A stretch of DNA of 42,848 nucleotides. It comes from a virus (lineage: Duplodnaviria > Heunggongvirae > Uroviricota > Caudoviricetes). Shown here piece after piece: positions 1,532 to 32,433 of the stretch; positions within the stretch are counted from its first letter, which is position 1, and every line of letters begins with the position of its first letter. Under the pieces are notes generated by a model. It made no database searches. It was not told the DNA's origin and saw only the letters and a program-made list of their open reading frames with translations. The position numbers and the translations under genes were made by a program. The stretch spans positions 1-42,848 of the IMG/VR virus record IMGVR_UViG_2563366985_000002, one strand, 5' to 3'.

Positions 1532-1741
1532 TTAATTTGAATACAATGCAATTCTCGAGGACTGAAGTTTCTCGCAATTAAAATTTATCAGTTTTACTTT
1601 CTGCTCTCTGGAAACGCCTGCTTCTTTTTTACCTGAGAGCATTTTTTCGCATTCTGATTTCGTTAGTTTAGATTTTGAATATCTTGTCCAGTTAGTAGGA
1701 GTGCCACCTTCCTTTTCAATAGTGGCGGTAATTTTATACAT
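1532..1741 (-). CDS. ydaC: Small prophage protein YdaC-like
   Basis: ORF with GAGGTG Shine-Dalgarno before the MYKITATIEKEGG start; 69 aa; sits between ralR and xis as in Rac. Confidence 0.5.
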   Translation of the reverse strand: MYKITATIEKEGGTPTNWTRYSKSKLTKSECEKMLSGKKEAGVSREQKVKLINFNCEKLQSSRIALYSN

Positions 1742-12198: not shown

Positions 12199-13881
12199 AT
12201 GGCCAAACAGTTTATGTTAATGGAACCAAAAAATGAGAACTTCAATGAATTAATTGGAGGGTCAAATAAGTACATTGTTCCTAGATTCCAGCGAGACTAT
12301 GCTTGGGATGTAGAACAATGGGAGGACCTTTGGAGTGATGTTACAGCACTTGATGATGAAGGTTTTCATTATATGGGATATATAGTTCTTCAACAAAAAG
12401 AACAGTATCAACATGAGGTCATTGACGGTCAACAACGATTAGTAACCTTGTCGATTATAGTTCTAGCAGCCATGAAAGCCATTAAAAACTTGATAGATAA
12501 AGGAGAGGAGGTTGAACAAAACACAGAGCGACTTGATGCAATAACAAAGACATTTGTGGGTAACAAAAACTTCGTTTCATTAAAGGTGGTTAGCAAGCTA
12601 GATTTAAATAGAAATAATAAAAGATATTTTCAAAGCATCTGTTCAAACTTAGAAGCTCCTAATACTCGTGGAACTACATCTACAAATAAGCTACTCAAGA
12701 AATGCTTTGATTTTTTCCAAAAGAAGGAGTTCGGTAATACCGGCGCTGAGATCGCACAGTTTATTGCCGATTTTTCTTCGAGTATGGTTTTTACAAAAAT
12801 AGTTGTTCAAGATGATTTAAATGCATACAAAGTATTTGAAACTTTAAATGCGAGAGGAGTCCAGTTATCCACGCCAGATCTCTTAAAAAACTATTTGTTT
12901 TCGATAGTAACTAAGGATGAGAAAATCGGAGATGAGGAATTAGATGAGTTAGATGAGCAATGGTCGGAGATTATCGATCAGTTGGGAGAAAGCAATGTTT
13001 CTGATTACATTAGGTATCATCATAATTCTCATAGAAAAATGGTCACAAAAAATAATTTATACACTTCAATGAGAAAAGTAATTACAACCCCTAAAGAAGC
13101 ATACGATTATTTAAGATCACTGATAAATTCCGCACCTATTTATGCATCATTGATTAACCCGAATGATTCATGGTGGGCAGAGCAAGATACTAAATACAAG
13201 AAGGCCATTCATTATCTGAACGGCATTAGACTCTTTAATATTAGACAGCCATTAACAGTATTGCTATCAGCTTTTAATCAATTCAATCCAGATGAGTTCG
13301 TCAGCCTGACTCGTTATTTATATATTTTATCAATTAGATACAATGTTATTTGTCATTTATCACCAAGTGAACAAGAAAGCATGTATAATCAAATTGCGAT
13401 TAAGATCTCCAATAAGGAATACAAGAGAGCTAGCAATGTGAAAAATGGGGAGGAGTTTAAGAGGTTATATCCTGATGATAACGTGTTCTTTAATGCTTTT
13501 GAATTTCATCGAATGCCAAGTAGACAAACAGCCAAAAAAATTAGATTTCTCTTGGCTGAAATTGAACAATATCTTGGTAATAATTGCGATCATGAAAAAG
13601 TTACACTCGAACATATTTGTCCATTTAACCCAGAGAAGGGGTGGTGCAATTCGTTTGGGGAGGGGGTTAATGACGTAAAGGATAGGTTAGGAAATATGGT
13701 TTTGATGGATAAAGATAATCTAAAAAGAGCTTCATTTGAAGTGAAGAAAAATGAATATGGAAAATCAAAGTATAAATTAGCGGCTAAGATTACACAGTAT
13801 CCTGAATGGAATTTAGAGGCTGTCAATGATTTTCAAAAATGGATGTCGGAACAAGCAGTAAATGTATGGAAAGTTGGTTAA
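12199..13881 (+). CDS. DUF262/DUF1524 two-domain nuclease, GmrSD-family-like (putative type IV restriction / anti-phage defence)
   Basis: 560 aa; N-terminal DUF262 signature (FQRDYAW ... VIDGQQRLVT); C-terminal His-Me finger-like DUF1524 region (EKVTLEHICPF...N); gene markedly AT-rich relative to flanking prophage DNA. Confidence 0.75.
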   Translation: MAKQFMLMEPKNENFNELIGGSNKYIVPRFQRDYAWDVEQWEDLWSDVTALDDEGFHYMGYIVLQQKEQYQHEVIDGQQRLVTLSIIVLAAMKAIKNLIDKGEEVEQNTERLDAITKTFVGNKNFVSLKVVSKLDLNRNNKRYFQSICSNLEAPNTRGTTSTNKLLKKCFDFFQKKEFGNTGAEIAQFIADFSSSMVFTKIVVQDDLNAYKVFETLNARGVQLSTPDLLKNYLFSIVTKDEKIGDEELDELDEQWSEIIDQLGESNVSDYIRYHHNSHRKMVTKNNLYTSMRKVITTPKEAYDYLRSLINSAPIYASLINPNDSWWAEQDTKYKKAIHYLNGIRLFNIRQPLTVLLSAFNQFNPDEFVSLTRYLYILSIRYNVICHLSPSEQESMYNQIAIKISNKEYKRASNVKNGEEFKRLYPDDNVFFNAFEFHRMPSRQTAKKIRFLLAEIEQYLGNNCDHEKVTLEHICPFNPEKGWCNSFGEGVNDVKDRLGNMVLMDKDNLKRASFEVKKNEYGKSKYKLAAKITQYPEWNLEAVNDFQKWMSEQAVNVWKVG

Positions 13882-14408: not shown

Positions 14409-15458
14409 ATGGGATTTATTTCACAACTATTCAATTTGCTTACCTCCAGGATAACTTCTGCAAAAACAATGACGCCTTCAAGTTTGCATGAGTTAACAGC
14501 TAACATAACTCCTAAACTCAAGAAACAAAACGGAAATATATCAATCGAAAACGATTGGCTTACTATTGATTCTCCTTATTTTTTTGGACAAGCGTATCTG
14601 TCTGCAAACAAACATTGGGTTGTAGGCTGTAGTGACTTTGATGGCAATGGAAGGGGAGGGCACCGGGAAAGTGGATTTGGAACAGTTGTTTTAGTTAATA
14701 AACCAACTTTTCGTATCCTTCATAAGCTCAGAACTATTGCCCGACCATTTAATGCTGCTGTCGCTGACACAGGTGATTATATTGTTCATGACGCTGGATT
14801 TGGTTCTGCGCTGCAAGCTGATTTGATTGCTATTGATGTTGAAGGAAATGAAAAGTTTAGACGTCATTATGAAGCAAATATCTATAATATCGGAATTTCT
14901 CATTGTGGTAAATACGCATCGGTTCAGACAGCCGCAGCGCCCGGTAAAGATGGAAATATCCTTGAGGTAATAAATCTGTGGTCAAAAACAACAATATTTT
15001 CCATTAAACCTGAGTATGGATGGGCTGATAGTTATTTCTTCGATCTCGATGAAAATGGGGGGCTAAGATCGCTGAAAGTGAAATGCAAAAATATTGGATA
15101 CTTCAGATACACTGCCATCGGTATTCCCATTGACGTGGAAGCGTATAAAGATGCTTGTCTATATAAAGGAAATTTCAACCTTAAAGTAGAGGCCGCGAGA
15201 GCGCTTTTAAGAGAACATCCCAGTGAGAAGAATGCTCAAAAAGCATTGAAAGCAATTGAAATGGCTCTTAATGAAGGAGCGAAAGACCGAACTGACTGGG
15301 CTGCAGCCGCATTTCGCATCAAAGGTGAAGCAAATGATTTACTTGGTAACTTTAGTGATGCTCTTGATGCCTATGAAAAAGCTTTGAGCTTTAATCCAAA
15401 AATAGGGGTTCAGAGACGAGTTAATGCTCTGCGTAAAAAATTACAGAGATTAAAATAA
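14409..15458 (+). CDS. Hypothetical protein, beta-rich N-domain with C-terminal TPR-like repeat
   Basis: 349-aa ORF with AGGAG Shine-Dalgarno; C-terminus AAAAFRIKGEANDLLGNFSDALDAYEKALSFNPK fits a TPR repeat; no catalytic motif recognised. Confidence 0.6.
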   Translation: MGFISQLFNLLTSRITSAKTMTPSSLHELTANITPKLKKQNGNISIENDWLTIDSPYFFGQAYLSANKHWVVGCSDFDGNGRGGHRESGFGTVVLVNKPTFRILHKLRTIARPFNAAVADTGDYIVHDAGFGSALQADLIAIDVEGNEKFRRHYEANIYNIGISHCGKYASVQTAAAPGKDGNILEVINLWSKTTIFSIKPEYGWADSYFFDLDENGGLRSLKVKCKNIGYFRYTAIGIPIDVEAYKDACLYKGNFNLKVEAARALLREHPSEKNAQKALKAIEMALNEGAKDRTDWAAAAFRIKGEANDLLGNFSDALDAYEKALSFNPKIGVQRRVNALRKKLQRLK

Positions 15459-15554: not shown

Positions 15555-16032
15555 TAGATGTTGGCTTCCGTCGGACTTGGCGTATTTAAAGAAGTGCTGG
15601 TAGTGACTGGTTGTTGTATTCCATTTCTACAGAACAAAATCACAGAAACTATACCCAATAGTTGTATTGAATCACTGACGAGACAGCCTCATATTTATCA
15701 GGGCAGGTGCACGTCCAATACAGGAGGTTGTCGTGCTGGTTCTCAAGTGTGCGTTGGCTATTGCGGCTGTGGTGGCAATTTATTGTCTTGCTATTGTTCT
15801 TATGGATCGCCTTTCTGATTGATTTCATATTGGCGAAGTAAAGGGGGTTAAATAGTATGGCTGCGGGGGCTTGAGGCTATCTGCCTTGGGCATGAAAACC
15901 AAAGGCAGATAGAAAAAGTCCCAGTTGATATTACGCATCCGGCAAGAGGCTTAACATTAATCTGGGGCCCAATCTATGCCTTACAAACGTAGGTTAGTCT
16001 CTTACGTGCTGAAAGGCAAGAAGAAGCGGGCT

Positions 16033-16188
16033 ATGAAGCAGCAAAAGGCGATGTTAATCACCCTGATCGTCATCTGTTTAACCGTTATAGTGACGGTACT
16101 GGTAACGAGGAAAGACCTCTGCGAGGTACGAATCCGAACCGACCAGACGGAGGTCGCTGTCTTCACAGCTTACGAACTTGGGGAGTAA
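16033..16188 (+). CDS. hok: Hok/Gef-family type I toxin (membrane peptide)
   Basis: 51-aa product MKQQKAMLITLIVICLTVIVTVLVTRKDLCEVRIRTDQTEVAVFTAYELGE, closely resembling HokD/RelF; the six-frame ORF carries a 19-codon in-frame upstream extension. Confidence 0.8.
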   Translation: MKQQKAMLITLIVICLTVIVTVLVTRKDLCEVRIRTDQTEVAVFTAYELGE

Positions 16189-16200
16189 GAGGACCAGCGG

Positions 16201-16210
16201 GGAGAAATCC
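16201..16210 (+). repeat. IS186 target-site duplication, left copy (GGAGAAATCC)
   Basis: Identical 10-mer abuts both IS186 termini. Confidence 0.75.
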
Positions 16211-17549
16211 CATAAGCGCTAACTTAAGGGTTGAACCATCTGAAGAATGCGACGCCTCGGTGCCTCGTTAAGACGATGCCTCGCGTTCTTCAATTGCGTT
16301 TTGTAGGCTGTCAGGGATACTGTCCCACGAATGGCCACCTGTAAGCTCCAGATGACCATTTTTGTTATTCTCCACAACGAGTTAGTTCTTCTTTTCGGAT
16401 CCGGCACTTCTGGGGGGGAAATCCAGCGATGGCTGGATTATGTCGTCAATTAAAAATGCGGCGAGTAGATTAGCAAATATCCACGCTTTCGCGAGTTCAG
16501 GTTCCTTTGCACGCAAAGCATCCAGGTGCAGCAAACTTTTGAGCCGCTTAAAAGCCAGTTCAATTTGCCATCGCAGACGGTAACAATCAGCCACTTGCTC
16601 TGCTGAATATTCATCTTCCGGTAATGATGTTAGCAATAGCACATGGCCCGCTGCTTCCAGCGTTTCCGCCTGAACTACTCGTCCTTTTCGACGATTCTCG
16701 CTGAGCAGTCGGGTTTTACTGATTAATGCTTTTTCGGGAGGAAGTGATACGGCAATGAGACGTGCCGGAAAGGGAGCTCCGGCTTTTTTATTACCTGAAT
16801 TGCCTATCATTACAGTGGTTTCACCGTTCTTACCGCAATCCAGCCCGCGCAGAAAACCCATCATGTCAAAGCGCATTCCTTCTGCAGTTAACCAGCGCAA
16901 TCCTCGCCAGTGAACCCGGACGATATAATCAGCTTCTCCAAAAGCAAGTGAGCGGATACATTCGGGACGCGAACCGAATCCCCGGTCAGCAATGCGTATC
17001 TCGTCTGCCGTTTGCGCAAATCGGTCCAGCCGTTCAGCGTCTCTGCTGTCGGTTAGCTCAAAATCAGTGAACTGACAGGTATGAGGATCATATCCCATAT
17101 GTAGTCGCCATTCAGCGCTGCCGCCCCCGGGCGCACTGATTGCTGTTCCATCGACAAGACGCAATCTCTTTCCGCTTGTACAACCCGTAACTGCGGCGCG
17201 TACAGCAAGTGTTTGTGCGGCAAGTATGCCAAACCAGTCGGCGGCATTCCGCAGCCGCTTCAGGAGAGCCACGTCAGATAATGTTGCAACGTCATGGAGC
17301 TGAGCCCATGCAGTGACTTCACGTAATGACATCCCCCCGGGGCCGTAAGCCAGCCCCAGACGTAGCAGAGTTGCAGCATCACGAATTTCGCGGCGGCGGG
17401 TTAGAGCCCCGGCATTACGTGCCGAAGTATCCAGTTCTTCGGGCTTACCAATATGGGCCAGAATTGCTGACCAGTTATCGTGAGAGTAATTCATCGGCAC
17501 GTTAAATCATATCAGGCGTAATACCACAACCCTTAAGTTAGCGCTTATG
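16211..17549 (-). mobile_element. IS186 (IS4 family), complete copy
   Basis: 23-bp perfect terminal inverted repeats CATAAGCGCTAACTTAAGGGTTG at 16211-16233 and reverse-complemented at 17527-17549; encloses the transposase ORF; flanked by a 10-bp direct repeat. Confidence 0.85.
16382..17500 (-). CDS. insL: IS186 transposase
   Basis: 372-aa ORF (start possibly 2 codons in, at MNYSHDNW) recognised as IS186 InsL transposase. Confidence 0.9.
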   Translation of the reverse strand: MPMNYSHDNWSAILAHIGKPEELDTSARNAGALTRRREIRDAATLLRLGLAYGPGGMSLREVTAWAQLHDVATLSDVALLKRLRNAADWFGILAAQTLAVRAAVTGCTSGKRLRLVDGTAISAPGGGSAEWRLHMGYDPHTCQFTDFELTDSRDAERLDRFAQTADEIRIADRGFGSRPECIRSLAFGEADYIVRVHWRGLRWLTAEGMRFDMMGFLRGLDCGKNGETTVMIGNSGNKKAGAPFPARLIAVSLPPEKALISKTRLLSENRRKGRVVQAETLEAAGHVLLLTSLPEDEYSAEQVADCYRLRWQIELAFKRLKSLLHLDALRAKEPELAKAWIFANLLAAFLIDDIIQPSLDFPPRSAGSEKKN

Positions 17550-17559
17550 GGAGAAATCC
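17550..17559 (+). repeat. IS186 target-site duplication, right copy (GGAGAAATCC)
   Basis: Identical to 16201-16210. Confidence 0.75.
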
Positions 17560-18000
17560 CCGCAACCTCTGATGTATTATGCATCCTCAACGCAGCCACA
17601 GTTAACCTGATTGGCGGGTTTACTTCATCTGTAAATATTTTTATAAAAATAATGCCCACGCACAGCATAAAACAAAAAGTATTACAGATAAAAAAGGAAC
17701 GTAATGTACAGATTTGTTGTTTTCCATATTTACTCACCTTAATATGATTAACCCTGATAGGGCTGTTATTTCAGCAGTTTTCAAATGAGATATTATGGTG
17801 ATCTGACAAATTTGCATAACATTAAAATTTAATTTGTTTAACCGCTTTTAATAATAAGCGTTGTTTGTATCCCAGCAATCTGTTGTTTGGTTTTTATTCC
17901 ATTAAGGTGGGGGCTTTACACTGGAACCAGTTTATTTATACTTTATACGTCAGCCTGAACAACTGGCATCTGCTGCACTGCGCCATCGAGAGATTGAGAA

Positions 18001-19762: not shown

Positions 19763-19838
<76 letters not shown>

Positions 19839-19841
19839 TAT

Positions 19842-19916
<75 letters not shown>

Positions 19917-32412: not shown

Positions 32413-32433
32413 GGGGCTTCGGCCCCATTTTTA
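32413..32433 (+). terminator. Intrinsic terminator after capsid gene
   Basis: GGGGC-ttcg-GCCCC hairpin followed by ATTTTTA. Confidence 0.55.

What the first reader, a model, noticed from the sequence alone, without database searches (positions are those of the whole stretch)
15976..17559. hok-family toxin gene with IS186 inserted 12 bp past its stop codon
The 51-aa Hok/Gef-type peptide gene (16033-16188) has an in-frame 19-codon upstream extension. A complete IS186 with 23-bp perfect terminal inverted repeats and a 10-bp target duplication (GGAGAAATCC) sits immediately downstream. In hok/sok loci the mRNA 3' end pairs with the 5' end to keep the message inert, so an insertion here would be expected to alter or silence the toxin message. 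Several chromosomal hok loci in E. coli K-12 are known to lie next to IS elements, so this may be another neutralised copy. No sok-like antisense gene can be assigned by eye in 15820-16030.
Basis: partly seen in the sequence, partly recalled or inferred. Interest (0 to 1): 0.6.

Follow-up and report, generated by a model that had tools for sequence, protein, structure and literature searches.

The report
IS186 splitting a prophage hok toxin message
A small membrane-toxin gene (hok, with its mok leader and Sok antisense antidote) in a Rac-type E. coli prophage has an IS186 jumping gene in the hairpin just after the toxin gene; the same thing has happened at other hok genes in thousands of E. 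coli genomes, so it is real but ordinary.

Summary
The window holds a 51-aa Hok ORF (16033-16188) and an in-frame 70-aa mok frame from 15976. IS186 occupies 16211-17549 (1339 bp), with perfect 23-bp inverted repeats and a 10-bp duplication, GGAGAAATCC. It is identical to K-12 IS186A and IS186B.

The locus is a complete hok/mok/sok type I toxin-antitoxin module in the nin-like region of a Rac-family prophage at ttcA. A Sok gene can be assigned on the minus strand (15984 to 15909). It lines up with the annotated sokW, sokC, sokB and sokE.

IS186 sits in the loop of the GC-rich hairpin GCGGGG-AGAAAT-CCCCGC. This hairpin is the homologue of the 3'-terminal protective stem of processed R1 hok mRNA. 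The insertion leaves the fold-back (fbi) element (17585-17597) 1.35 kb downstream. With the IS removed, the message folds with a 5'/3' closing helix (10 of 12 pairs).

The hairpin matches the published IS186 target GGGG(N6)CCCC. K-12 hokC and hokE carry IS186 at the same nucleotide position. At least seven independent hits on hok hairpins were found, and occupied sites are present in hundreds to thousands of genomes.

Silencing of the toxin message is inferred, not shown. Verdict: a new member of a known kind, of low interest.

The parts
15830..15858 (+). Putative hok/mok promoter: -35 TTGGCG (15830-15835), 17-nt spacer, -10 TAGTAT (15853-15858). Predicted transcription start is about 15865.
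   Evidence: Read from the sequence. The -10 aligns with the TATAAT of K-12 hokC. The Rfam leader model starts at 15865. The consensus scanner did not call this promoter.
15865..16038 (+). hok mRNA 5' leader. It holds tac (GGGGGCUUGAGG, 15865-15876), a 5' hairpin (15877-15912), the anti-SD/ucb (GUCCCAG, 15918-15924) and the mok SD strand (CUGGGGC, 15962-15968).
   Evidence: Rfam RF01794 'sok (CssrC)' scores 92.4 bits against a gathering score of 59, E = 1.3e-19, over the full model. Pair counts on a 10-sequence alignment support the helices.
15909..15984 (-). Sok antisense RNA gene. It starts at G15984, overlaps the first 9 nt of mok, and ends in a long hairpin followed by CUUUUU.
   Evidence: It lines up position for position with the annotated sokW of phage 933W and with sokC, sokB and sokE of K-12.
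15991..16019 (-). Sok promoter: -35 TTGCCT (16019-16014), 17-nt spacer, -10 TAACCT (15996-15991).
   Evidence: Both hexamers and the spacer length match those upstream of sokW in 933W.
15976..16188 (+). mok-type leader reading frame (70 aa), in frame with hok and sharing its stop codon.
   Evidence: ORF list. mokC of K-12 and mokW of 933W are annotated with the same layout.
16033..16188 (+). hok toxin gene (51 aa). The protein is identical in the uninterrupted allele of strain S3.
   Evidence: Pfam PF01848, 73.1 bits. PHROG 251. The same protein accession, WP_021554378.1, is annotated in PK8568 (with the IS) and in S3 (without it).
16197..16210 (+). Left half of the split 3' hairpin: stem GCGGGG (16197-16202), loop AGAAAT, then CC. 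It lies inside an outer stem, AGAGG (16188-16192).
   Evidence: Sequence. In the reconstructed fold it forms the hairpin GCGGGGA-GAAA-UCCCCGC.
16201..16210 (.). Left copy of the target-site duplication, GGAGAAATCC.
16211..17549 (-). IS186 (called IS421 in RefSeq), 1339 bp. Inverted repeats at 16211-16233 and 17527-17549. The transposase insL lies at 16382-17494 on the minus strand, antisense to hok.
   Evidence: It is 1339/1339 identical to K-12 IS186A and IS186B.
17550..17559 (.). Right copy of the target-site duplication, GGAGAAATCC.
17558..17570 (+). Right half of the split 3' hairpin (CCCCGC, 17558-17563) and the outer stem CCUCU (17566-17570).
17585..17597 (+). Displaced fbi (fold-back inhibition) element, CCUCAACGCAGCC. 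It is complementary to tac at 10 of 12 positions, with one bulged C.
   Evidence: It forms the closing helix in the MFE and centroid folds. It is homologous to CUUCAACGCACCC of hokC and CCUCAACGCACCC of K-12 hokD and 933W.
17604..17626 (+). Degenerate terminator of the full-length hok mRNA: AACCUG-AUUGG-CGGGUU, then UACUU.
   Evidence: It aligns with the clean terminator AACCCGCTTCGGCGGGTTTTT of K-12 hokD and Rac 442/2. It folds as a hairpin.

Best explanation
This is a hok/mok/sok type I toxin-antitoxin module carried as a moron in the nin-like region of a Rac-family prophage integrated at ttcA. It lies between a DUF262/TPR gene pair and the DUF1367-DUF1364-DUF1133 (Q-like) genes.

In its ancestral form the roughly 410-nt hok mRNA starts near 15865. 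It is kept closed and inert by pairing of its 5' tac element with the 3' fbi element. By analogy with plasmid R1, it is then slowly trimmed back to a GC-rich terminal stem-loop. That produces the active form, which Sok binds and destroys.

IS186 has a published target of GGGG(N6/7)CCCC. It inserted into the loop of exactly that terminal stem-loop, GCGGGG-AGAAAT-CCCCGC. This destroys the stem and moves fbi and the terminator 1.35 kb away, onto DNA no longer part of the same short transcript.

What is shown: the identity and layout of every element, the intact hok, mok and Sok sequences, the 5'/3' complementarity of the reconstructed allele, the exact insertion point, and its recurrence at other hok loci.

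What is inferred from work on R1 hok and K-12 gef: transcripts now run into and end inside IS186. They cannot form the stable closed reservoir and lack the natural 3' protective stem. The module therefore can no longer deliver delayed (post-segregational or stress-triggered) killing, while Sok still covers any residual message. The copy is functionally disarmed but not destroyed.

Why the IS is here is explained by target specificity. The hok terminal hairpin is one of the few IS186 target motifs in the genome, and an insertion in an untranslated region of an accessory toxin gene is tolerated or favoured.
For: Identity of the elements:
- Pfam HOK_GEF and PHROG 251 match the toxin.
- Rfam RF01794 matches the leader.
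- The Sok promoter, start and terminator line up with the annotated sokW, sokC, sokB and sokE.
- The mok layout matches mokC and mokW.

Genomic context: a Rac-type prophage at ttcA. Homologous uninterrupted hok/mok/sok modules are found in lambdoid phages including 933W and a 'phage Rac' record.

Reconstructed message:
- MFE -145.9 kcal/mol, z = -5.64, with the 5'/3' helix present in both the MFE and the centroid structure.
- tac/fbi pairs at 10 of 12 positions here and 11-12 of 12 in relatives.
- On the 10-sequence alignment the proposed structure is 84.9% paired, against 38-51% when the partners are slid, with 11 pairs changed on both sides.

Insertion point: the loop of the hairpin, at the same position as in K-12 hokC and hokE.

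Role of the hairpin: in R1, 19 single substitutions that break GC pairs of the terminal stem of the processed hok mRNA abolish toxicity, and the G345A and C358A mutants lose the processed RNA (PMC9841398). Those positions fall within the R1 hairpin that aligns with this one.

K-12 precedent: the IS186 downstream of gef/hokC is thought to disrupt fbi and normal processing, and the mRNA ends inside the IS (PMC3562002).

Target motif: GGGG(N6/N7)CCCC (PMC5009759). The IS-excised window contains only two such sites.
Against: - No RNA or toxicity data exist for this allele, so silencing is not shown.
- IS-free chromosomal hokA, hokB and hokC loci were reported unable to mediate post-segregational killing (summarised in bioRxiv 10.1101/2025.08.07.668861). 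The module may therefore already have been inert before the insertion.
- This allele's tac/fbi pairing is weaker than in relatives: -13.5 kcal/mol against -17 to -20.6. A duplex of that strength alone occurs about once per 780 nt in the window.
- K-12 gef, which has the same IS186 arrangement, is reported as still transcribed and regulated by its antisense RNA. The insertion therefore does not abolish expression outright.
- IS186 contains a strong internal hairpin (about 16242-16292) that could act as a substitute 3' protective structure.
Confidence: 0.75

Rival explanations
1. The insertion is a neutral hot-spot hit on an already inert locus. IS186 landed here only because the hairpin matches its target motif. 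The module was already non-functional, so the insertion changed nothing of consequence and persists by drift or hitch-hiking.
For: - The target motif is highly specific and rare (PMC5009759; two sites in this window).
- IS186 occupies the homologous site at hokC in 816 genomes and at hokE in 1756 of 5426 genomes.
- IS-free chromosomal hok loci reportedly do not mediate post-segregational killing.
- This allele has two tac/fbi mismatches, a GGGG mok SD that adds a pair to the SD/anti-SD stem (like the R1 loss-of-function change A106G), and a degenerate terminator.
- The IS-free sister allele in S3 carries a tac G-to-A change that corresponds to the R1 loss-of-function change G4A.
Against: - The Hok ORF, the mok frame, and the Sok promoter and terminator are all intact and conserved.
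- 42 of 45 tested Hok homologues from all kinds of location were toxic when expressed.
- hokE naturally has the GGGG SD, so that change is not necessarily inactivating.
- Other IS186 hot spots, in menC and fimA, are hit often in mutation-accumulation lines. This rival does not explain why the hok sites in particular are occupied in so many natural genomes, unless insertions there are at least harmless.
Confidence: 0.35
2. The insertion deregulates the toxin rather than silencing it. Without fbi the message is constitutively in the open, translatable, Sok-accessible form, and an IS-internal hairpin stabilises its 3' end. The module becomes a simple Sok-titrated toxin and remains potentially lethal if Sok falls.
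For: - In R1 the closed state depends on the tac/fbi helix (PMC9841398).
- K-12 gef, with IS186 in the same orientation, is still transcribed and antisense-regulated, with an mRNA of about 644 nt ending inside the IS.
- A strong hairpin lies in the first 80 nt or so of the IS on this strand.
Against: - A constitutively open toxin message would be expected to be costly, yet IS-occupied alleles are very common.
- In R1, weakening the natural terminal stem alone abolishes toxicity.
- No data exist for this allele.
Confidence: 0.15
3. The end of the IS supplies a surrogate fbi. The sequence GCCUCGGUGCCUC at 16255-16268, inside IS186, pairs with tac and restores a fold-back.
For: The predicted duplex energy is -16.0 kcal/mol, stronger than the native fbi (-13.5). 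It has a similar layout of 6 bp, a bulge, then 5 bp, and it lies at a similar distance from the hairpin.
Against: - Duplexes this strong occur 32 times in 83 kb of background sequence, so the chance of one within 300 nt is about 11%.
- With the commoner tac sequence GGGUGC it reaches only -13.3.
- The opposite IS orientation, found in 270 genomes, has no equivalent site at that position.
Confidence: 0.05

Closest known systems
E. coli K-12 hokC (gef)/mokC/sokC with IS186A
   Same: The family and layout are the same, including the in-frame mok. IS186 lies in the loop of the homologous hairpin (GCGGGG-AGTGAT-CCCCGC), at the same nucleotide position, with a 10-bp duplication and in the same orientation, transposase antisense to hok. 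fbi is displaced in the same way.
   Different: hokC is a chromosomal locus between dnaJ and nhaA, not in a prophage. Its Sok-target hairpin is 18 nt shorter. Its tac/fbi pairing is perfect at 12 of 12 positions, against 10 of 12 here.
E. coli K-12 hokE/sokE with IS186B
   Same: IS186 lies in the loop of the homologous hairpin (GCGGGG-AGTAAT-CCCCGC) with a 10-bp duplication. It also shares the GGGG mok SD.
   Different: The IS is in the opposite orientation. The Hok sequence is divergent. The locus is chromosomal, next to entD.
hokW/mokW/sokW of Stx2 phage 933W, and hok/mok of 'phage Rac' from E. coli 442/2
   Same: These are 87-88% identical uninterrupted modules in lambdoid phages. The Sok promoter hexamers and start are the same, mok is in frame, fbi is CCUCAACGCACCC, and the neighbours are similar, with the DUF1367-DUF1364-Q genes downstream in Rac 442/2.
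   Different: They carry no IS. The 933W hairpin (GCGGGGGAGTAATCTCCCGC) does not fit GGGG(N6)CCCC. Rac 442/2 has a rem gene between hok and the DUF1367 gene.
E. coli K-12 hokD (relF) in the Qin prophage
   Same: It is the closest named Hok protein, differing at 5 residues. It lies in a prophage, and its 3' UTR has the same hairpin, fbi and terminator order.
   Different: In K-12 hokD the upstream mok/sok/leader region is replaced by relBE. Its hairpin is mutated (CCCTC), and it carries no IS.
hok/sok of plasmid R1 (the paradigm)
   Same: It has the same set of elements: tac, ucb/anti-SD, mok SD, Sok, terminal GC stem-loop, fbi and terminator.
   Different: The R1 mok is out of frame with hok (from my own knowledge of the R1 sequence). 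The R1 hairpin (GGCGGGC-GCAG-GCCCGCC) is not an IS186 target. R1 is a plasmid with demonstrated post-segregational killing.

Membership tests
hok/sok (Hok/Gef) type I toxin-antitoxin | A toxin of about 50 aa with an N-terminal transmembrane helix and the conserved Hok/Gef C-terminal part. | tested here: met
   Pfam PF01848, 73.1 bits against a cut-off of 22. PHROG 251, E = 3.9e-30.
hok/sok (Hok/Gef) type I toxin-antitoxin | An overlapping mok leader frame that starts upstream of hok, inside the Sok target. | tested here: met
   A 70-aa frame at 15976-16188. Its ATG aligns with those of mokC and mokW.
hok/sok (Hok/Gef) type I toxin-antitoxin | A cis-encoded antisense Sok RNA with its own promoter and terminator, overlapping the mok start. 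| tested here: met
   It lies on the minus strand from 15984 to 15909. The -35, -10 and start site match the annotated sokW, and it ends in a hairpin plus a U-run. Expression was not tested.
hok/sok (Hok/Gef) type I toxin-antitoxin | A conserved, structured hok mRNA leader holding tac, ucb and the SD stem. | tested here: met
   Rfam RF01794, 92.4 bits against a gathering score of 59.
hok/sok (Hok/Gef) type I toxin-antitoxin | Long-range tac/fbi pairing between the 5' and 3' ends of one roughly 400-nt mRNA. | tested here: not met
   In the window as it stands, fbi (17585-17597) is separated from the message by 1339 bp of IS186. In the reconstructed ancestral allele the feature is met, with 10 of 12 pairs and the helix present in the MFE and centroid folds. 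The locus is therefore a disrupted member of the family, not a non-member.
hok/sok (Hok/Gef) type I toxin-antitoxin | A GC-rich terminal stem-loop just after the hok stop codon, which forms the 3' end of the processed active mRNA. | tested here: not met
   The stem GCGGGG/CCCCGC is split by the IS. Only three G-C pairs (GGG/CCC) can still form at the left junction. The stem is intact in the reconstructed allele.
hok/sok (Hok/Gef) type I toxin-antitoxin | Toxicity of Hok, repression by Sok, and post-segregational killing. | not testable with these tools
   This needs expression and plasmid-loss assays.
IS186 (IS4 family) | An element of about 1.34 kb with 23-bp perfect terminal inverted repeats. 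| tested here: met
   1339 bp, with 23/23 matching inverted repeats.
IS186 (IS4 family) | A single intact DDE transposase, InsL. | tested here: met
   A 370-aa ORF matching Pfam DDE_Tnp_1 at E = 1.6e-26. The DNA is 100% identical to K-12 IS186A and IS186B.
IS186 (IS4 family) | A target-site duplication within a GGGG(N6/N7)CCCC target. | tested here: met
   The target is GGGG-AGAAAT-CCCC and the duplication is 10 bp. The motif is from PMC5009759.

The most novel reading that the evidence does not exclude
The terminal stem-loops of hok mRNAs are the main natural landing sites of IS186 in E. coli, and the association is not just mutational bias. On this reading, IS186 insertion is a recurrent, selected and heritable off-switch for chromosomal, prophage and phage-plasmid hok modules. 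Alternatively, IS186 specificity has been shaped towards such harmless, terminator-like hairpins.

The evidence does not exclude this.
- At least seven independent hits on hok hairpins were found, in both orientations.
- Four of the eight distinct IS186 sites found in the species-representative scan are hok hairpins.
- Two of the three K-12 copies are at hok hairpins.
- Occupancy is 816 of 5426 genomes at hokC, 1756 of 5426 at hokE, and 190 plus 270 at this hokD-like family, against 518 empty sites.

An earlier preprint already noted hok/sok genes near insertion hot spots of mobile elements and suggested adaptive disruption (10.1101/527788).
Probability: 0.25. Interest if true: 0.45.

Novelty: new member of a known kind. 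Interest (0 to 1): 0.25.

Why it matters
The finding has limited importance by itself. It adds a Rac-prophage copy to the known set of hok loci interrupted by IS186. It also shows at nucleotide resolution that the insertion point is the loop of the hairpin that protects the active hok mRNA, and that this hairpin is an IS186 target motif.

For annotation, an 'intact' Hok ORF next to IS186/IS421 should not be counted as a functional toxin-antitoxin or defence module. In complete E. coli genomes a large fraction of hokC, hokE and hokD-like loci are in this state.

For evolution, it is a clean natural example of target-site specificity producing convergent, repeated disruption of the same regulatory RNA element in paralogous genes.

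Tried and rejected
- The consensus promoter/terminator scanner found no sigma-70 site or terminator for hok or Sok. The hexamers (TTGGCG/TAGTAT and TTGCCT/TAACCT) fall below its 9-of-12 threshold. The assignments therefore rest on alignment to annotated homologues, not on the scan.
- tac/fbi duplex energy on its own is not rare: -13.5 kcal/mol, with 55 comparable sites in 42.8 kb. It was not used as stand-alone evidence. Homology and the whole-message fold carry the argument.
- The IS-borne 'pseudo-fbi' at 16255-16268 was examined and rejected as being at chance level, about 11%.
- A candidate terminator-like hairpin inside the IS (16331-16359 plus a U-run) folds only weakly, at -9.5 kcal/mol. 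The real 3' end of the IS+ transcript could not be predicted.
- A direct position-by-position comparison of the window with strain PK8568 failed because of indels and was dropped.
- The SaiSree et al. 2001 paper on the IS186 consensus target (PMC95536) and the supplement of PMC5009759 are not held. Pedersen and Gerdes 1999, on K-12 hok loci and IS elements, is not in the library and is cited only from my own knowledge.
- The 29-aa ORF at 15733-15822 and the ORFs at 17507-17747 gave no Pfam or PHROG match.
- The Rfam E-value search of the uninterrupted allele found nothing apart from RF01794.
Full report
**1. Observation**

- The ORF at 16033-16188 encodes a 51-aa peptide that matches Pfam HOK_GEF (E = 1.3e-20) and PHROG 251 'MokW-like host killing'.
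- An in-frame ATG at 15976 extends it to 70 aa.
- IS186 occupies 16211-17549 (1339 bp). It has 23/23 perfect inverted repeats and the direct repeat GGAGAAATCC at 16201-16210 and 17550-17559.
- The IS is identical at all 1339 positions to K-12 IS186A and IS186B. It encodes an intact 370-aa DDE transposase on the strand opposite to hok.
- One precision: the duplication starts 12 bp after the stop codon, but the IS itself starts 22 bp after it.

**2. Context**

The window is a Rac-family defective prophage integrated at ttcA. It carries intR, xisR, ralR with the RalA sRNA, recET, kilR, sieB, racR and ydaST. It continues with DUF1627, DUF977, DUF262, a TPR protein, hok, IS186, DUF1367, DUF1364, DUF1133, two tRNAs, lysis genes, trkG and pinR.
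- The hok-IS186 segment (window 15700-17800) is 100% identical to strain PK8568 and others. 190 of 5426 complete E. coli genomes hold the same IS-occupied locus.
- Homologous uninterrupted modules (87-90% identity) sit in active lambdoid phages. In 933W, mokW, hokW and the SokW antisense RNA are annotated. A 'phage Rac' record also annotates mok and hok upstream of rem, DUF1367, DUF1364 and Q.

**3. Anatomy of the module**

- Rfam RF01794 matches 15865-16038 on the plus strand over the full model (92.4 bits against a gathering score of 59). This is the structured hok leader, beginning with tac (GGGGGCUUGAGG).
- A promoter can be read upstream: TTGGCG, 17 nt, TAGTAT, at 15830-15858. Its -10 aligns with the TATAAT of hokC.
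- On the minus strand, TTGCCT (16019-16014), 17 nt and TAACCT (15996-15991) precede a start at G15984. The RNA runs to about 15909 and ends in a long hairpin plus CUUUUU.
- This stretch lines up position for position with the annotated sokW of 933W, which has the same hexamers and the same start. It also aligns with sokC, sokB and sokE of K-12.
- The RNA overlaps the first 9 nt of mok, as sokW does with mokW.
- The in-frame mok layout is the one annotated for mokC and mokW.

**4. The reconstructed message**

Removing the IS and one repeat copy gives a sequence that exists in nature. Strain S3 is 99.7% identical, NCTC9699 is 99.5%, and 518 genomes hold an uninterrupted homologue.
- From 15865 to just past fbi the message is 386 nt. 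It folds at -145.9 kcal/mol (z = -5.64 against shuffles). In both the MFE and the centroid structure the 5' end pairs with CCUCAACGCAGCC at 17585-17597.
- The pairing covers 10 of 12 positions here. It covers 11 of 12 in the Combat11I9 allele and 12 of 12 in hokC, a phage-plasmid copy and the WP5-S17 allele. hokB shows a compensatory G-C to A-U change.
- On a 10-sequence alignment the proposed helices are 84.9% paired, against 38-51% when the partners are slid. Eleven pairs are changed on both sides.
- The duplex energy alone is not rare, so the case rests on homology and the global fold.
- Downstream of fbi lies a degenerate version of the clean terminator seen in K-12 hokD and Rac 442/2.

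**5. Where exactly the IS sits**

Between the stop codon and fbi the reconstructed 3' UTR forms an outer stem (AGAGG/CCUCU) enclosing the hairpin GCGGGG-AGAAAT-CCCCGC. The IS lies in the loop of this hairpin.
- In the R1-type sequence the aligned hairpin is GGCGGGC-GCAG-GCCCGCC. In R1 numbering it covers about 342-359.
[quoted passage not shown] In those two mutants the processed mRNA disappears, probably through 3'-to-5' exoribonucleases (PMC9841398).
- So IS186 splits the element that protects the active mRNA, and it removes fbi and the terminator to a distance of 1.35 kb.
- For K-12 gef/hokC the same arrangement is described as disrupting fbi and normal processing. That mRNA is about 644 nt long, ends inside the IS, and is still antisense-regulated (PMC3562002).

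**6. Why it is there**

IS186 inserts at GGGG(N6/N7)CCCC, a motif found only about 54 times in the K-12 genome (PMC5009759).
- The hok hairpin is GGGG-AGAAAT-CCCC. The IS-excised window has only one other such site, at 32413.
- K-12 hokC (GGGG-AGTGAT-CCCC) and hokE (GGGG-AGTAAT-CCCC) carry IS186 at the identical position with 10-bp duplications, hokE in the opposite orientation.
- A construct with the IS inverted matched 270 genomes over at least 80% of its length.
- Junctions were verified in several records: chromosome 300033 (opposite orientation), a phage-plasmid of strain CX21 (loop AGAGAT), and WP5-S17 (11-bp duplication). LR-64-1 has the same junction and orientation as the window on a different 5' allele, so it is not counted as a separate event.
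- A scan of species-representative genomes found eight distinct IS186 sites with this junction type. Four of them are hok hairpins, including an independent hit in an E. albertii hokE-like locus. The lon promoter hot spot is among the others.
- The K-12-type occupied sites are present in 816 genomes (hokC) and 1756 genomes (hokE) out of 5426, a count inflated by laboratory K-12 derivatives.
- A preprint already noted hok/sok genes near insertion hot spots of mobile elements (10.1101/527788).

**7. Consequence and rival explanations**

The best-supported reading is that the module is disarmed. There is no closed, stable mRNA reservoir and no natural 3' protective stem, so delayed killing is lost. 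Hok, mok and Sok themselves remain intact: the IS+ and IS- alleles encode the same protein. This step is inferred from work on R1 and K-12, not shown for this allele.

Three rivals were considered.
- The locus may already have been inert. IS-free chromosomal hok loci reportedly fail to mediate post-segregational killing, and this allele shows signs of weakening.
- Loss of fbi may deregulate the toxin rather than silence it.
- A sequence at the IS end might act as a surrogate fbi. This match is at chance level.

**8. Peculiarities of this allele**

Compared with its closest relatives, this allele differs in several regulatory elements.
- tac is GGGGGC instead of GGGUGC.
- fbi is GCAGCC instead of GCACCC.
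- The anti-SD is GUCCC instead of GCCCC.
- The mok SD is GGGG instead of GAGG.

The SD change closes the C·A mismatch in the SD/anti-SD stem, as the R1 loss-of-function mutation A106G does. However, hokE has the same GGGG naturally.

The IS-free S3 allele and the IS+ 300033 allele both have a tac G-to-A change that corresponds to the R1 loss-of-function change G4A. These changes hint at several routes of decay in this lineage. They were not tested.

**9. Verdict**

It belongs to a known kind, chromosomal or prophage hok loci interrupted by IS186 at the 3' hairpin. That kind has been known in K-12 since the 1990s (my own knowledge of Pedersen and Gerdes 1999, which is not held in the library) and is very common in E. 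coli genomes. Interest is low. What this analysis adds is the nucleotide-level account (target motif = terminal stem-loop) and the population numbers.

Noticed in passing
window 15733-15822 (+): A 29-aa strongly hydrophobic ORF (MLVLKCALAIAAVVAIYCLAIVLMDRLSD) starts at a GTG preceded by a strong AGGAGG ribosome-binding site, about 130 nt upstream of the hok transcript start. It has no Pfam or PHROG match. A 'membrane domain protein' fragment is annotated at the equivalent place upstream of hokD on the CX21 phage-plasmid. It may be a small membrane protein.
   Followed up: partly
window 12199-13881 (+) and 14409-15458 (+): Just upstream of hok lie a 560-aa DUF262 protein and a 349-aa TPR protein. 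The DUF262 protein matches the PADLOC candidate defence family HEC-06 at E = 4e-221, with weaker SspE and type IV restriction matches. The TPR protein has no PADLOC match. This is a probable anti-phage moron island next to the toxin-antitoxin module.
   Followed up: partly
window 1557-1735 (+): [quoted passage not shown] This is a second type I toxin-antitoxin module in the same Rac-type prophage.
   Followed up: no
window 19763-19835 and 19842-19913 (+): Two prophage-borne tRNA genes lie downstream of the Q-like gene. The matching genes in the PK8568 record are annotated as tRNA-Thr and tRNA-Gly.
   Followed up: no
window 15865-15876, 15918-15924, 15962-15968; L004 (S3) and L009 (300033): Regulatory elements differ between nearly identical alleles. 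tac reads GGGGGC in the window, GGGGAC in S3, GGAUAC in 300033 and GGGUGC in Combat11I9. The mok SD is GGGG in the window and S3 but GAGG in the others. Some of these changes correspond to the R1 loss-of-function substitutions G4A and A106G (PMC9841398). This suggests relaxed or inactivating evolution of the RNA switch in this lineage.
   Followed up: partly
window 16171-16174 (+): Hok codon 47 is TAC followed by G. This is the TACG context reported for TadA A-to-I editing that recodes a C-terminal tyrosine to cysteine in hokB, hokC, hokD and hokE (summarised in bioRxiv 10.1101/2025.08.07.668861). The motif GCTTACGAA is conserved in 9 of the 10 aligned hok loci.
   Followed up: no
window 32413-32426: This is the only other GGGG(N6/7)CCCC site in the IS-excised window (GGGGCTTCGGCCCC). 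It is unoccupied, and is a potential further IS186 target.
   Followed up: no
window 16255-16268 (+), inside IS186: The sequence GCCUCGGUGCCUC can pair with the hok tac element at -16.0 kcal/mol, in a layout like that of fbi. It was judged to be at chance level, about 11%.
   Followed up: yes
L020 (Escherichia albertii NBRC 107761), L022, L010: IS186 also sits in the 3' hairpin of a hokE-like gene in E. albertii (loop GTAAAA, orientation opposite to E. coli hokE). It also sits in the hok hairpin of phage-plasmids of about 95-145 kb. Several 'non-Escherichia' assemblies (Marinobacter, Kocuria, Streptosporangium, Enhygromyxa and some MAGs) contain short contigs that match the E. coli hokC::IS186, hokE::IS186 or lon::IS186 junction sequences. 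These are probably E. coli contamination.
   Followed up: partly
window 17560-18000: The 440-bp AT-rich spacer between the IS and the DUF1367 gene has no supported ORF. In 'phage Rac' 442/2 and in K-12 Qin, a rem gene lies between hok and the DUF1367 gene. The hok terminator here is degenerate compared with those records.
   Followed up: partly
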